Shown piece after piece: positions 50,201 through 51,578 of a stretch of DNA of 64,000 nt. Made by a program: the position numbers and the translations under genes. How positions within the stretch are numbered: position 1 is the first letter of the stretch; every line of letters begins with the position of its first letter. This stretch comes from Patescibacteria group bacterium. Lineage in GTDB: Bacteria > Patescibacteriota > Microgenomatia > UBA8517. Below the pieces are notes generated by a model. It searched no databases. It saw nothing but the letters and a program-made list of their open reading frames with translations, and had not been told where the DNA came from. The stretch covers positions 64,783 through 128,782 of the forward strand of contig JAHJHG010000009.1 in assembly GCA_018823885.1 (NCBI GenBank), in the 5' to 3' direction.

Positions 50201-50239
50201 CTACTTGGGTAGGAAAAAGATACTTCAGAAGACCAAAAC

Positions 50240-50268
50240 TTGAATCACTTGACTTCATTTGCTATACT
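50240..50268 (+). promoter_or_regulatory. sigma-70-like promoter (TTGAAT-N17-TATACT) for the inserted hypothetical gene
   Basis: TTGAAT 50240-50245, TATACT 50263-50268; downstream palindrome AGCGTA-T-TACGCT at ~50297-50309. Confidence 0.5.
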
Positions 50269-50351
50269 AACTTAGTTAGATAAAATAAAAGTTATAGCGT
50301 ATTACGCTCGATGGGAGTGTTTTGCCGCGAATAATGTAGACAAGTAGTACA

Positions 50352-51221
50352 ATGAAAGACAACGATACAGATTATAAAATTAGTATAAAAGGGCCAGGAG
50401 TATCTATTGATAAAACAACAAGCAATCCCAATGTGGCTGCTAGTATTTTCTCGTTGCTTATGTCCCCAACGTTACATACACAAAAAGAAGGATTTCTTCA
50501 AGAGATTGGACCCGCGAAGACAGAAAAAGCCGTAAGGGAATATTTAAATGAAAAAAGTCCAAAGACAAATTCTCAAAAAATTACAGTATTTGCAATGTTT
50601 TTACGAGATTATTTGGATTTTAAAACCATCACACAGAAAGATTTGAAAAGCCAATTTGAAAAATCCCATGAACCTGTTCCGGCTAACTTCTCGAGAGATT
50701 TTATGAAAGCAATTAGTCTTGGGTGGCTTGCGGAGAGCTATGAGCAACCGGGAAAATTTTTTATTACACTTTCAGGAGAAGGGGCAGTTAACGGATCTTT
50801 TAAAAGCGAAATTAAAAGATCGTTAGCAACGAAGAATAGGAAGAGTGGAAAGAGGCCCAAAGGAACTCTCGTTGCAGCGACAATAAGGGACGAGATAAAA
50901 AAAATCGAGCTTATTCCAAACCCTGAAGGATACAAATCTTATTGGGACGATCTTACGACAAAATCAGACAGAGCATTGTGGCTTTTGGCACAGGCGAAAG
51001 AGAAAGGAATAGAGAAACTTAATTCAAAAGAATTGTCTACGTTGGCTTCGAAAGTTAATGACAATATTGTTCCAAAACAAATCAAATCTTTATTACTAAG
51101 CCACTCAAAGAAAGGATTAGTAAGCCAATCTGTAACGGATGGATTATTAAGATTAACAATCCTAGAAGGAGGGATTAGGCATGTGCAGAAGATCGCGGAA
51201 GATTTAGGAGATGATAACTAG
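50352..51221 (+). CDS. hypothetical protein inserted between rpsJ and rplC
   Basis: 289 aa, Lys/Ser-rich soluble protein with no recognisable catalytic motif; own promoter; immediately followed by a tRNA. Confidence 0.55.
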   Translation: MKDNDTDYKISIKGPGVSIDKTTSNPNVAASIFSLLMSPTLHTQKEGFLQEIGPAKTEKAVREYLNEKSPKTNSQKITVFAMFLRDYLDFKTITQKDLKSQFEKSHEPVPANFSRDFMKAISLGWLAESYEQPGKFFITLSGEGAVNGSFKSEIKRSLATKNRKSGKRPKGTLVAATIRDEIKKIELIPNPEGYKSYWDDLTTKSDRALWLLAQAKEKGIEKLNSKELSTLASKVNDNIVPKQIKSLLLSHSKKGLVSQSVTDGLLRLTILEGGIRHVQKIAEDLGDDN

Positions 51222-51307
51222 GTGGGGTGACCGAGTGGCAAGGTGGTCGGTTTGGTAACCGACTTGTCTTCATCAGGCAAACATGGGTTCGAATCCCATC
51301 CCCACCG
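51221..51307 (+). tRNA. type-II tRNA (long variable arm; Tyr-like acceptor/T arms) with a non-canonical 8-nt (or 6-nt) anticodon loop, so isotype unresolved
   Basis: acceptor GGTGGGG/CCCCACC, D-arm ACC-GAGTGGCAA-GGT, anticodon stem GTCGG/CCGAC with loop TTTGGTAA, 6-bp variable arm TTGTCT-TCATC-AGGCAA, T-arm ATGGG-TTCGAAT-CCCAT, discriminator G, no encoded CCA. Confidence 0.6.
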
Positions 51308-51320
51308 CTCAATAAAAAAG

Positions 51321-51350
51321 AAAGGGGCCTTGCGGCCCCAATCTTATTTG
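51321..51350 (+). terminator. hairpin GGGGCC-TTGC-GGCCCC followed by AATCTTATTTG (terminator-like) after the tRNA
   Basis: 6-bp GC stem with tetraloop at 51324-51339, U-rich tail. Confidence 0.45.
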
Positions 51351-51378
51351 TCGGCGAACCGACTAGTCTTCATCAGAC
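51350..51378 (+). repeat. degenerate partial copy of the tRNA core (anticodon stem with CGAA tetraloop + variable-arm segment)
   Basis: GTCGG-CGAA-CCGAC-TAGTCTTCATCAGAC matches tRNA 51246-51279 (aaccgactTgtcttcatcagGc vs aaccgactAgtcttcatcagAc, 20/22). Confidence 0.6.
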
Positions 51379-51451
51379 GATTTATTATAGCACAAAAGAT
51401 GGATTTGTCAATACTATGGGTTGCAACTTACGTTAAACTCTGAAAGACATC

Positions 51452-51480
51452 TTGCCTCACATGGCTTCATTTGATATAAT
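51452..51480 (+). promoter_or_regulatory. sigma-70-like promoter (TTGCCT-N17-TATAAT) upstream of rplC
   Basis: TTGCCT 51452-51457, TATAAT 51475-51480. Confidence 0.45.
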
Positions 51481-51542
51481 TGCACATCGTGGATAGTTCG
51501 TCTTAATTGGCCACGCTAGGAGTCTCGGAAAATGCACTTAAT

Positions 51543-51566
51543 GGGTGCCCCCGGGCGCCTTTTTTC
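51543..51566 (+). terminator. GC-rich hairpin (GGGTGCCCCCGGGCGCC) + TTTTTTC in the rplC leader (attenuator-like)
   Basis: lies 13 nt upstream of the probable rplC ATG (51579) and inside the ORF-table N-terminal extension. Confidence 0.45.
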
Positions 51567-51578
51567 GTGCCTGAAAAA

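What the first reader, a model, noticed from the sequence alone, without database searches (positions are those of the whole stretch)
50201..51578. Insertion splitting the universally adjacent rpsJ-rplC pair
Between S10 and L3 lie four elements: a strong sigma-70-like promoter; a 289-aa hypothetical Lys/Ser-rich protein; a type-II tRNA plus terminator; and a 29-nt degenerate partial copy of the tRNA core (anticodon stem closed by a CGAA tetraloop plus variable-arm segment, 20/22 identity). After these, a fresh promoter and leader hairpin restart rplC. rpsJ-rplC contiguity is among the most conserved gene adjacencies in bacteria, so an insertion here is rare. A tRNA with a nearby partial duplicate is the typical scar of site-specific integration at a tRNA gene. 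No integrase is present, so this may be a decayed islet whose cargo gene was retained.
Basis: partly seen in the sequence, partly recalled or inferred. Interest (0 to 1): 0.7.

Follow-up and report, generated by a model that had tools for sequence, protein, structure and literature searches.

The report
Protein, pseudo-tRNA and antisense RNA cassette
The DNA wedged between ribosomal genes S10 and L3 is not a decayed integration scar but a conserved, apparently undescribed three-part cassette (a double winged-helix protein, a tRNA-like RNA fused to the end of its gene, and a small RNA made from the opposite strand that matches that tRNA-like RNA); it recurs beside ribosomal-protein genes in at least nine uncultured Patescibacteria.

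Summary
The interpretation as a tRNA-integration scar in a decayed islet does not hold.

The "partial tRNA copy" has its own perfect sigma-70 promoter on the minus strand (TTGACA-16-TGcTATAAT, 51411-51384). It ends at the terminator it shares with the tRNA. This predicts a roughly 64-nt small RNA whose 5' end is antisense to the tRNA's anticodon stem and variable arm.

The same layout occurs in eight other metagenomic loci. In order it is: promoter, ~280-aa ORF, type-II tRNA-like element abutting or overlapping the ORF's end, bidirectional terminator, convergent antisense sRNA, promoter. Where the upstream gene is known, the loci lie after rpsJ or rpsG.

Each sRNA matches its own tRNA-like partner, not those of other loci. 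Acceptor and T stems covary. Anticodon loops do not: they are 7, 8 or 9 nt with unrelated triplets, and 8 nt here.

The ORF models as a tandem winged-helix protein from a large family with no Pfam entry (912 cluster representatives).

The rplC promoter and leader are native to Woesebacteria. In that clade the S10-L3 junction is commonly occupied by assorted genes.

The proposed mechanism, an antisense switch on tRNA-like processing and ORF expression, is inferred and not shown.

The parts
49892..50200 (+). rpsJ (ribosomal protein S10), the upstream neighbour. The cassette begins right after its stop codon.
   Evidence: ORF list; Pfam Ribosomal_S10 on the identical NCBI locus.
50202..50270 (+). 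Left imperfect direct repeat, a second copy of the native S10-rplC spacer and rplC promoter. It contains the ORF promoter: -35 TTGAAT 50240-50245 and -10 TGcTATACT ending at 50268.
   Evidence: Promoter scan, (9/12 plus TG). Local alignment of left versus right flank scores 49, against 25.7 +/- 4.8 (max 43) for shuffles.
50352..51221 (+). ORF289, a tandem winged-helix protein: N-terminal beta-hairpin plus helix (1-37), WH1 (61-147), a disordered basic linker, and WH2 (204-284).
51221..51307 (+). Type-II tRNA-like element (pseudo-tRNA). Its first base is the last base of the ORF stop codon. Acceptor GGTGGGG/CCCCACC; G73; 17-nt variable arm; anticodon stem GTCGG/CCGAC (51246-50 / 51259-63) closing an 8-nt loop UUUGGUAA (51251-51258).
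   Evidence: ARAGORN 'tRNA-???'. Rfam tRNA 49.8 bits with a one-base insertion in the anticodon loop. Cloverleaf table.
51324..51339 (.). Bidirectional intrinsic terminator GGGGCC-TTGC-GGCCCC, with an A-run upstream and a T-run downstream. It is shared by the ORF/tRNA-like transcript and by the convergent sRNA.
   Evidence: Found on both strands by the terminator scan. The tail is TTTCTTTTTT on the minus strand and AATCTTATTT on the plus strand.
51314..51377 (-). Predicted ~64-nt small RNA: 5'-UCUGAUGAAGACUA-GUCGGUUCGCCGAC-AAAUAAGAUU-terminator-U6. Its 5' ~29 nt are antisense to tRNA-like positions 25-58.
   Evidence: Promoter plus terminator. Predicted TSS and duplex of -40.6 kcal/mol, against a non-cognate mean of -15.4. 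Cofold gain -5.5 kcal/mol. Not verified by transcript data.
51350..51376 (+). This is the template of the sRNA seed and its first hairpin.
   Evidence: 19/20 identity with 51257-51276; 0/2000 shuffles reach the score. These are the only two matches to the seed in the 64-kb window.
51384..51411 (-). sRNA promoter: TTGACA, 16-nt spacer, TGcTATAAT (12/12 plus extended -10).
   Evidence: An equivalent promoter sits at the same place in all 8 loci whose downstream sequence is available, of the 9 carrying the cassette.
51412..51482 (+). Right imperfect direct repeat. It holds the CYATAG box (CTATGG 51414-51419) abutting the sRNA -35, then the native rplC promoter (-35 TTGCCT 51452-51457, -10 TGaTATAAT ending at 51480).
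   Evidence: The promoter sequence GCTTCATTTGATATAAT is conserved in relatives.
51481..51578 (+). Native rplC leader with a terminator-like hairpin (51543-51560) and a T-run just before the start codon. It is not part of the insertion.
   Evidence: Conserved in Woesebacteria relatives with minimal gaps and with other insertions. 79% identical in L006.
51579..52310 (+). rplC (ribosomal protein L3), the downstream neighbour.

Best explanation
The 1.25 kb between rpsJ and the native rplC promoter is one copy of a conserved, self-contained cassette with three products.

1. A ~280-aa tandem winged-helix protein, presumably nucleic-acid binding.
2. A type-II tRNA-like RNA that is transcribed as the 3' end of the protein's mRNA. 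Its 5' end abuts or lies inside the end of the ORF.
3. A 50-64-nt small RNA made from a strong convergent promoter and ending at the same bidirectional terminator. Its 5' hairpins are the mirror image of the tRNA-like variable arm and anticodon stem.

Shown: the architecture, its recurrence, the covariation of the cloverleaf top half, and the locus-specific complementarity between sRNA and tRNA-like element.

Inferred mechanism:
- When the tRNA-like part folds, RNase P cuts at its 5' end. In 7 of 9 loci this removes or truncates the ORF's stop codon. The result would be a non-stop mRNA and a free tRNA-like RNA.
- The sRNA, by kissing-loop pairing to the variable arm and anticodon stem, either prevents that fold or creates an RNase III substrate. 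It would thereby set how much protein versus tRNA-like RNA is made.
- The winged-helix protein probably feeds back on the cassette promoters. A conserved CYATAG box abuts the sRNA -35.
- The tRNA-like RNA is unlikely to be an ordinary decoder, because its anticodon loop varies freely in length and sequence.

The cassette sits where the upstream r-protein gene ends and the downstream gene's own promoter begins. It therefore does not break an operon.
For: Architecture in the window.

Same order of parts in other loci:
- L086 (rpsG|fusA)
- L089 (rpsJ|rplC)
- L091-93 (rpsG|fusA) and L096
- L097, L098 and L099 (after rpsJ in L098/L099)
- L100 (after rpsG)
- P0030 also lies after rpsG, but no DNA was available.

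sRNA genes:
- Promoters are TTGACA/C, 16-18 nt spacer, (TGn)TAnnnT in all 8 loci with downstream sequence.
- The predicted start falls on the first base of the complementarity.
- All end at the shared terminator.
- Cognate sRNA/tRNA-like duplexes are -31 to -44 kcal/mol. The 42 non-cognate pairs average -15.4 (sd 5, best -29).
- The heterodimer is favoured over the separate folds in all 8 loci.

tRNA-likeness:
- Rfam tRNA scores are 43-56 bits in 6 loci.
- Acceptor stems pair 7/7 and T stems 5/5 in all 8, using 6 and 4 different sequences respectively.
- Anticodon loops are 7, 8 or 9 nt with unrelated triplets. Discriminators are G, U or A.
- ORF/tRNA overlap is 1, 0, 39, 15, 15, 21, 48 and 15 nt, and -5 nt in L096.

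Other points:
- A CYATAG box lies within ~20 nt upstream of the sRNA -35 in 8/8 loci.
- The rplC promoter and leader are native.
- The published analogue for the processing idea is selC nested in the end of selB (PMC8124441).
Against: - There are no transcript data. The sRNA, its start site and RNase P cleavage are predictions.
- In L098 and L096 the tRNA-like element starts after the stop codon, so stop-codon removal cannot be universal.
- Mature tRNA folds are stable. The predicted gain from sRNA pairing is modest in some loci (-4 to -5.5 kcal/mol in L086 and the window).
- Several members (window, L098, L100) keep canonical tRNA tertiary nucleotides and could still be charged and used.
- Two family members lack the tRNA-like and sRNA parts: L094/95 (next to TnpB) and L090. 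The link may therefore hold only for one subfamily.
- Only 11 distinct loci of a 912-representative family had enough downstream DNA to judge.
- DNA binding to the CYATAG box is conjecture.
Confidence: 0.6

Rival explanations
1. RNA toxin-antitoxin or addiction cassette. The tRNA-like RNA is harmful: a chargeable tRNA body with an arbitrary anticodon would mistranslate, or it would titrate a synthetase, EF-Tu or a processing enzyme. The co-evolving antisense sRNA neutralises it. The winged-helix protein is the transcriptional regulator. Selfishness would explain the patchy distribution and the placement beside essential genes.
For: - Long variable arm with perfect acceptor and T stems but unconstrained anticodons (CAU, UAG, CCA, AAC, and 8- and 9-nt loops).
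- Strong constitutive-looking sRNA promoters in all loci.
- Convergent layout with a shared terminator, resembling known type I systems (own knowledge: txpA/RatA, bsrG/SR4).
- Patchy occurrence: absent from the other S10-L3 gaps examined among the 80 fetched relatives.
Against: - No PADLOC or toxin-antitoxin family match.
- Discriminator bases differ (G, U, A), so no single aminoacylation identity is conserved.
- D and T loops are degenerate in L099 and L097, arguing against ribosomal use.
- Toxicity is untested.
- The protein tree shows mild clustering by location, which fits old vertical inheritance as well as mobility.
Confidence: 0.17
2. One reading: a site-specific integrase inserted an element at a tRNA gene. 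The partial copy is the leftover att duplicate, the integrase has decayed, and the ORF is retained cargo.
For: - The tRNA has a nearby partial direct repeat.
- The cassette is an insertion relative to close relatives.
- Imperfect direct repeats flank it in the window.
Against: - The repeat is internal to the tRNA (anticodon stem and variable arm), not its 3' end.
- It lies 40 nt from the tRNA, and the ORF is on the other side.
- It has a perfect promoter on the opposite strand.
- The identical arrangement occurs in 8 further loci at two different target junctions. Each copy is matched to its own, different, tRNA-like sequence, with compensatory stem changes.
- There is no room for an integrase. 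The neighbours are tuf, rpsJ and rplC.
- There is no compositional anomaly.
Confidence: 0.04
3. The tRNA is an ordinary or specialised functional tRNA, for example a frameshift-suppressing or non-ribosomal aminoacyl donor, that happens to follow the ORF. The downstream copy acts on the plus strand or at DNA level, as a protein-binding decoy, a recombination site or a replication-slippage relic. On this view the minus-strand promoter is not used for a regulatory RNA.
For: - The window tRNA keeps U8, A14, G18G19 and a TTCGAAT T-loop, and scores above the Rfam tRNA threshold.
- 8-nt anticodon loops are known in frameshift suppressors (own knowledge: sufJ-type tRNAs).
- Direct repeats could support recombination.
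Against: - Anticodon loop length and sequence are not conserved among homologous cassettes.
- The promoter, its TG extension, its spacing to the copy and the shared terminator are conserved in 8/8 loci. Meanwhile the copy sequence itself changes in step with the tRNA-like partner. This is hard to explain without a minus-strand RNA.
Confidence: 0.12

Closest known systems
selC (tRNA-Sec) nested in or overlapping the 3' end of selB in Alphaproteobacteria and others (Mukai 2021, PMC8124441)
   Same: A long-variable-arm tRNA sequence overlaps the end of an ORF whose product contains winged-helix domains. tRNA 5' processing is proposed to create a non-stop mRNA, so that protein and tRNA output become alternatives.
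   Different: selC is a bona fide tRNA with a fixed anticodon and a known partnership with SelB. No antisense sRNA is involved. The ORF here has no EF-Tu-like domain, and the anticodon loop is unconstrained.
Convergent type I toxin-antitoxin loci and plasmid antisense control (txpA/RatA, bsrG/SR4; CopA/CopT, RNA I/RNA II). Recalled from own knowledge.
   Same: A short, strongly transcribed antisense RNA converges on the 3' part of a longer transcript. It shares a bidirectional terminator and has hairpins that mirror target hairpins, giving kissing-loop geometry.
   Different: The target here is a tRNA-like structure, not a toxin ORF or replication primer. The main complementarity comes from a duplicated segment (trans), not from overlap. 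The ORF is a 289-aa winged-helix protein, not a small membrane peptide. There are no TA or defence family matches.
Pseudo-tRNAs and non-canonical tRNAs (B. cereus tRNA-Other; allo-tRNAs with Ser-type bodies and odd anticodons; expanded anticodon loops). Recalled from own knowledge.
   Same: A tRNA-shaped RNA with a long variable arm, and an anticodon that does not fit its body. The anticodon loop is 8 nt in the window and in L099.
   Different: The acceptor/T geometry here is the standard 7/5, not 8/4 or 9/3. To my knowledge none of those RNAs has a dedicated co-evolving antisense sRNA or a fused upstream winged-helix ORF.
tRNA-gene integration scars (attL/attR of integrative elements)
   Same: A tRNA with a nearby partial direct repeat, inside an insertion.
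   Different: The repeat is internal, adjacent, promoter-bearing, and conserved as a functional unit across loci. There is no integrase.

Membership tests
Integrative element at a tRNA gene (att scar) | The repeat corresponds to the 3' portion of the tRNA, running to or beyond its 3' end | tested here: not met
   The repeat covers tRNA 51246-51276 (anticodon stem and variable arm) only. No T arm or acceptor is copied.
Integrative element at a tRNA gene (att scar) | The repeat lies at the far end of the inserted DNA, with cargo and integrase between tRNA and repeat | tested here: not met
   The copy starts 43 nt after the tRNA with only a terminator between them. The ORF is upstream of the tRNA. 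The neighbours are tuf, rpsJ and rplC.
Integrative element at a tRNA gene (att scar) | The repeat has no function of its own, so there is no conserved expression signals across independent occurrences | tested here: not met
   A 12/12 minus-strand promoter and a shared terminator are present here, with equivalents in all 7 other loci with downstream sequence.
Canonical elongator tRNA (type II: Ser/Leu/Tyr) | Cloverleaf with a 7-bp acceptor, a 5-bp T stem and a long variable arm | tested here: met
   Rfam tRNA 49.8 bits. Acceptor 7/7 and T stem 5/5 in all 8 homologous elements, with compensatory changes.
Canonical elongator tRNA (type II: Ser/Leu/Tyr) | 7-nt anticodon loop, with an anticodon conserved among orthologues and matching the body's identity | tested here: not met
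   The window loop has 8 nt (UUUGGUAA). Homologues show CAU, UAG, CCA, AAC, an 8-nt and a 9-nt loop. The discriminator is G, U or A.
Canonical elongator tRNA (type II: Ser/Leu/Tyr) | Aminoacylation and use on the ribosome | not testable with these tools
   Needs charging assays or tRNA-seq.
Type I toxin-antitoxin (convergent sRNA type) | Small hydrophobic toxic peptide encoded by the target mRNA | tested here: not met
   The ORF is a 289-aa soluble tandem winged-helix protein. There are no PADLOC hits.
Type I toxin-antitoxin (convergent sRNA type) | Convergent antisense sRNA pairing with the 3' part of the target transcript and sharing a terminator | tested here: met
   (prediction from sequence; no transcript data).
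Nested tRNA / ORF overlap (selB-selC type) | The tRNA 5' end lies at or upstream of the ORF stop codon, so that RNase P cleavage removes the stop | tested here: met
   Overlap is 1 nt in the window and 15-48 nt in six other loci. The feature is not met in L098 (0 nt) or L096 (5-nt spacer).
Nested tRNA / ORF overlap (selB-selC type) | The protein is the dedicated partner of that tRNA | not testable with these tools
   There is no EF-Tu-like or synthetase-like domain, only winged helices. Binding is untested.
MarR/PadR-type winged-helix transcription factors | Winged-helix fold | tested here: met
MarR/PadR-type winged-helix transcription factors | Sequence membership (Pfam/NCBIfam model above threshold) | tested here: not met
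   There is no family above threshold in Pfam, NCBIfam or PHROGs. The PDB profile search gave only E=0.13.

The most novel reading that the evidence does not exclude
The cassette is a new class of RNA-centred selfish or regulatory element specific to Patescibacteria. A chargeable or enzyme-titrating pseudo-tRNA is held in check by its own co-evolving antisense sRNA, that is, an RNA toxin with an RNA antitoxin and a winged-helix regulator. The element homes to the gene-end/promoter junctions of the str-S10 ribosomal cluster. Expression of the translation apparatus would thereby be coupled to the element's maintenance.
Probability: 0.2. Interest if true: 0.9.

Novelty: categorically new. Interest (0 to 1): 0.72.

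Why it matters
**A possible new regulatory principle.** If the prediction holds, this is a bacterial small RNA whose dedicated, co-evolving target is a tRNA-shaped RNA fused to an mRNA. I found no description of such an arrangement in five full-text literature searches.

**It gives a first handle on a large protein family.** The family has 912 cluster representatives at 50% identity and no Pfam entry.

**It is testable.** The cassette is compact, about 1.2 kb, and can be expressed heterologously. It offers a way into RNA processing and gene control in uncultured, genome-reduced Patescibacteria.

**It corrects a common heuristic.** A tRNA with a nearby partial copy is not always an integration scar.

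**The S10-L3 adjacency is not universal.** In Woesebacteria, rplC has its own promoter and attenuator-like leader, and the junction is a hotspot for gene insertion.

Tried and rejected
1. Hammerhead ribozyme. The minus-strand RNA begins with a CUGAUGA motif, but there is no GAAA or stem III context and no Rfam hit at E<=10. Rejected.
2. Searches for the ORF in Pfam, PHROGs, NCBIfam and PADLOC, and a PDB profile search, found nothing significant.
3. tblastn against plasmid and phage collections, and a viral-contig scan, found no relatives. A phage or plasmid origin therefore has no support.
4. The search for homologous proteins with the 50-sequence profile returned only 3 proteins because of its candidate cap. 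The exhaustive representative search was the useful one.
5. The afdb50 fold library was not available.
6. A viral scan with the 50-sequence alignment failed because no block was conserved enough.
7. Flanking direct repeats were significant in the window (z about 4.9) and marginal in L086 (z about 2.7). They were not significant in L089 or L091. A general target-site duplication is therefore not established.
8. RNAalifold on a MAFFT alignment of 13 rplC leaders gave no meaningful consensus, because the terminator arms were misaligned. Conservation of the leader rests on sequence only.
9. Compositional foreignness: GC, GC3 and codon-usage distance of ORF289 are unremarkable.
10. A local reference set of genuine type-II tRNAs could not be assembled. 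Only 11 tRNAs were found in all fetched loci, so the ancestry of the tRNA-like body (Ser, Leu or Tyr) was not resolved.
11. DNA for P0002 and P0030 (JGI 3300075153) could not be fetched.
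Full report
**Source and layout**

The window matches GCA_018817485.1, contig JAHITM010000018.1, a Patescibacteria MAG. The best L3 matches come from genomes labelled Woesebacteria or Microgenomates. The local gene order is rpoC, rpsL, rpsG, fusA, tuf, rpsJ (49892-50200), ORF289 (50352-51221), a tRNA (51221-51307), rplC (51579-52310), then rplD and onwards. Five independent assemblies of this species are identical across 50201-51578.

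**Checking the observation**

- The ORF promoter is TTGAAT-17-TGcTATACT at 50240-50268, matching 9/12.
- ARAGORN calls the tRNA 'tRNA-???' with a two-base anticodon.
- The Rfam tRNA model scores 49.8 bits, against a gathering threshold of 29. It needs a one-base insertion in the anticodon loop.
- That gives stem GUCGG/CCGAC with an 8-nt loop UUUGGUAA, a 17-nt variable arm and discriminator G73.
- The terminator GGGGCCTTGCGGCCCC lies at 51324-51339.
- The partial copy lies at 51350-51376. Its core is 19/20 identical to 51257-51276, and 0 of 2000 shuffles reach the score.
- These two sites are the only matches to the seed in the 64-kb window.
- The rplC promoter (51452-51480, 10/12 plus TG) and a terminator-like hairpin (51543-51560) follow.

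The same scan reports a perfect minus-strand promoter, TTGACA-16-TGcTATAAT at 51411-51384. It points at the partial copy. The scan also finds the terminator on both strands, with the better U-tail (TTTCTTTTTT) on the minus strand.

Together these delimit a ~64-nt minus-strand transcription unit, about 51377 to 51314. Its RNA reads 5'-UCUGAUGAAGACUA / GUCGG-UUCG-CCGAC / spacer / terminator. Its first ~29 nt are antisense to positions 25-58 of the tRNA.

**The junction in relatives**

I fetched 80 loci encoding L3 relatives, one genome per species.

| Group | S10-L3 gap |
|---|---|
| Chloroflexi, Elusimicrobia, Poribacteria and similar (L049-L085) | 27-63 nt in 13 loci; 139-309 nt in 13 others, mostly Anaerolineae |
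| Woesebacteria/Microgenomates | never below ~130 nt |

- In Woesebacteria/Microgenomates, 19 of the 34 loci with both genes in the fetched stretch have gaps above 600 nt, up to 3.4 kb.
- Those gaps hold unrelated cargo on both strands (assignments by eye from the translations, not checked against a family library). A ~180-aa ORF recurs in ten of them and looks like a TlyA/FtsJ-type methyltransferase. Others look like a ~375-aa membrane protein, S23-IVS-like proteins, a toxin-antitoxin pair and a reductase.
- None of those gaps contains a tRNA.
- The minimal gaps all consist of one conserved unit: CTTGC..., then TTTGATATAAT, then CGTGGAGGTGGTT...AACCAC...GGATGTGCC...GGCGCCTCCGGCGCC-T7. The same unit lies directly upstream of rplC in relatives carrying other insertions.
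- Window 51452-51578 is this unit. The closest relative, L006 (L3 79% identical), aligns to the window only over 51464-51569.

So rplC has its own native promoter and attenuator-like leader in this clade. The junction is not an intra-operon site, and insertions there are common in the lineage. The particular cargo in the window is species-specific among the sampled relatives.

**The ORF**

The word-indexed search found only the protein itself and one homologue at 38% identity. The exhaustive profile search found 912 cluster representatives at E<=1e-3 and 526 at E<=1e-10. Most are 270-290 aa. Half-length forms match either the N-terminal or the C-terminal half.

No Pfam, PHROG, NCBIfam or PADLOC model matches.

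An AlphaFold2 model built from 50 family members has mean pLDDT 88.4. It shows:

- an N-terminal beta-hairpin plus helix, residues 1-37;
- a winged helix, residues 61-147;
- a disordered basic linker;
- a second winged helix, residues 204-284.

**The cassette recurs**

I fetched the DNA around family members. The same order of parts appears in each of the following loci.

| Locus | Position | Anticodon loop or triplet |
|---|---|---|
| window | rpsJ / rplC | 8-nt loop UUUGGUAA |
| L086 | rpsG / fusA | UAG |
| L089 | rpsJ / rplC | CAU |
| L091-93 | rpsG / fusA | CAU; 32-nt variable region; missed by ARAGORN, 51.3 bits in Rfam |
| L096 | contig truncated | CAU |
| L097 | upstream gene not on the contig | degenerate, 9-nt loop |
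| L098 | after rpsJ | CCA |
| L099 | after rpsJ | 8-nt loop ACUAGCAA |
| L100 | after rpsG | AAC |

P0030 also lies after rpsG, but no DNA could be fetched. Two members lack the RNA parts. L094/95, next to a TnpB gene, has a long non-tRNA hairpin after the ORF. L090 has nothing recognisable.

**The small RNA gene is conserved and tracks its partner**

In all eight loci with downstream sequence:

- the minus strand carries TTGACA (TTGACC once), a 16-18-nt spacer ending in TGn, and TAnnnT;
- the predicted start coincides with the first base of the complementarity;
- the unit ends at the shared terminator;
- the predicted RNAs are 50-64 nt.

Cognate sRNA/tRNA-like duplexes are -31 to -44 kcal/mol. 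The 42 non-cognate pairs average -15.4 (sd 5.0, best -29.0). The heterodimer is more stable than the two separate folds in all eight loci, by 4-15 kcal/mol.

The sRNA hairpins are mirror images of the variable-arm and anticodon-stem hairpins. This is the geometry of kissing-loop antisense pairs. The copies differ completely between loci but follow their own tRNA-like sequence, including compensatory stem changes. In L086, for example, CCGG/CCGG becomes TTGG/CCA. The copy is therefore a maintained functional partner, not a relic.

**The tRNA-like element**

- Acceptor stems pair 7/7 and T stems 5/5 in all eight elements, using six and four different sequences. This is clear covariation for the top half of the cloverleaf.
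- Anticodon loops are 7, 8 or 9 nt and carry unrelated sequences.
- Discriminators are G, U or A.
- L099 and L097 have lost the GG of the D loop and have UGCAAAU or UGCAAUU T-loops.

This pattern fits selection for recognition by processing enzymes and for the long variable arm. It does not fit selection for decoding.

The 5' end of the element overlaps the ORF by 1 nt in the window, where the last G of TAG is tRNA base 1. The overlap is 15, 15, 15, 21, 39 and 48 nt in six other loci. It is 0 nt in L098, and L096 has a 5-nt spacer.

**Flanks**

In the window the cassette is bracketed by imperfect direct repeats, about 70% identical, of the native spacer and rplC promoter: 50202-50270 and 51412-51482. 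The alignment scores 49, against 25.7 +/- 4.8 for shuffles. ORF289 is thus driven by a duplicate of the rplC promoter. The equivalent test is marginal in L086 and negative in L089 and L091.

A CYATAG box, or its complement, lies within ~20 nt upstream of the sRNA -35 in 8/8 loci. It is a candidate operator.

**Mechanism (inferred)**

The closest published idea is Mukai's analysis of selC nested in the end of selB. There, tRNA processing is proposed to generate a non-stop selB mRNA, so that protein and tRNA become alternative outputs (PMC8124441).

By analogy, folding and RNase P cleavage of the tRNA-like element would remove the ORF's stop codon in 7 of 9 loci. The antisense sRNA would prevent the fold by pairing with the variable arm and anticodon stem, or would create a duplex for RNase III. 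Either way it would act as the switch. The winged-helix protein probably regulates the promoters.

I put the architecture at about 0.85 and this mechanism at about 0.35. The main rival is an RNA toxin/antitoxin reading, in which the pseudo-tRNA itself is harmful.

**Novelty**

Five full-text literature searches found no description of a bacterial sRNA dedicated to a tRNA-like partner, or of this protein family. No relatives occur in the plasmid, phage or viral collections.

The cassette fails defining features of integration scars, canonical tRNAs and type I toxin-antitoxin systems. I therefore do not file it under any of them.

**Limits**

- Everything about transcripts and processing is predicted from sequence.
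- Only 11 distinct loci of a large family could be judged.
- The distribution outside Patescibacteria is unknown. L087 and L088 are distant homologues on short contigs with no tRNA found by ARAGORN.

Noticed in passing
window 51452-51578; also L006, L009-L015, L020, L021, L024, L034, L036, L042 upstream of rplC: A conserved rplC promoter and ~95-nt leader ending in an intrinsic-terminator-like hairpin and T-run just before the start codon. The sequence runs CGTGGAGGTGGTT..AACCAC..GGATGTGCC..GGCGCCTCCGGCGCC-T7. It looks like an undescribed ribosomal-protein attenuator or leader of Woesebacteria/Microgenomates. There is no Rfam match.
   Followed up: partly
L006-L046 and L071, S10-L3 gaps (coordinates): In this clade the S10-L3 junction is a hotspot. 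19 of the 34 relatives with both genes in the fetched stretch carry 0.6-3.4 kb of varied genes there. A ~180-aa ORF recurs in ten of them (L019, L020, L022, L025, L028, L029, L030, L039, L040, L043) and looks like a TlyA/FtsJ-type methyltransferase by eye; it was not checked against a family library.
   Followed up: partly
L086 3940-3986; L091 4065-4120: fusA in these genomes also has its own promoter followed by a terminator-like leader hairpin (CTTCCAGAACTGGGAG-T7 and CTTCCGAGTGCGGGAG-T7). This parallels the rplC leader. In L086 the cassette ORF is preceded by a similar promoter plus hairpin.
   Followed up: no
window 51414-51419; L086, L089, L091, L097-L100 just upstream of the sRNA -35: A CYATAG / CTATRG box, often AACTATAGCCCATAG-like, abuts the sRNA promoter in 8/8 loci. 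It is a candidate operator for the winged-helix protein. The window's left flank has a related palindrome, CTACTTGGGTAG, at 50202-50213.
   Followed up: partly
L094 3903-4010; L095: A family member (P0006, 300 aa) sits ~430 nt downstream of a TnpB (Cas12f-like) gene. It is followed not by a tRNA-like element but by a ~100-nt imperfect long hairpin (TGTGGGC...GCCCACA).
   Followed up: no
L091 2875-2925; L097 1-55: A conserved ~50-nt element, GACGAATGGTAAGRTTAGTGGGACGAATCGNGCCTTCTCCCA, lies upstream of the cassette ORF in two loci; in L091 it sits between rpsG and the ORF. Its function is unknown.
   Followed up: no
L088 23-655 and 660-1214; representative search hits of ~160-200 aa: The family also exists as half-length proteins matching only the N-terminal or only the C-terminal half. 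In L088 two such ORFs are adjacent. This suggests the two-domain protein can be split.
   Followed up: no
window 51370-51377 (minus strand): The predicted sRNA begins with UCUGAUGA, which resembles the hammerhead CUGAUGA core. There is no supporting ribozyme context or Rfam hit, so it is probably coincidental.
   Followed up: yes
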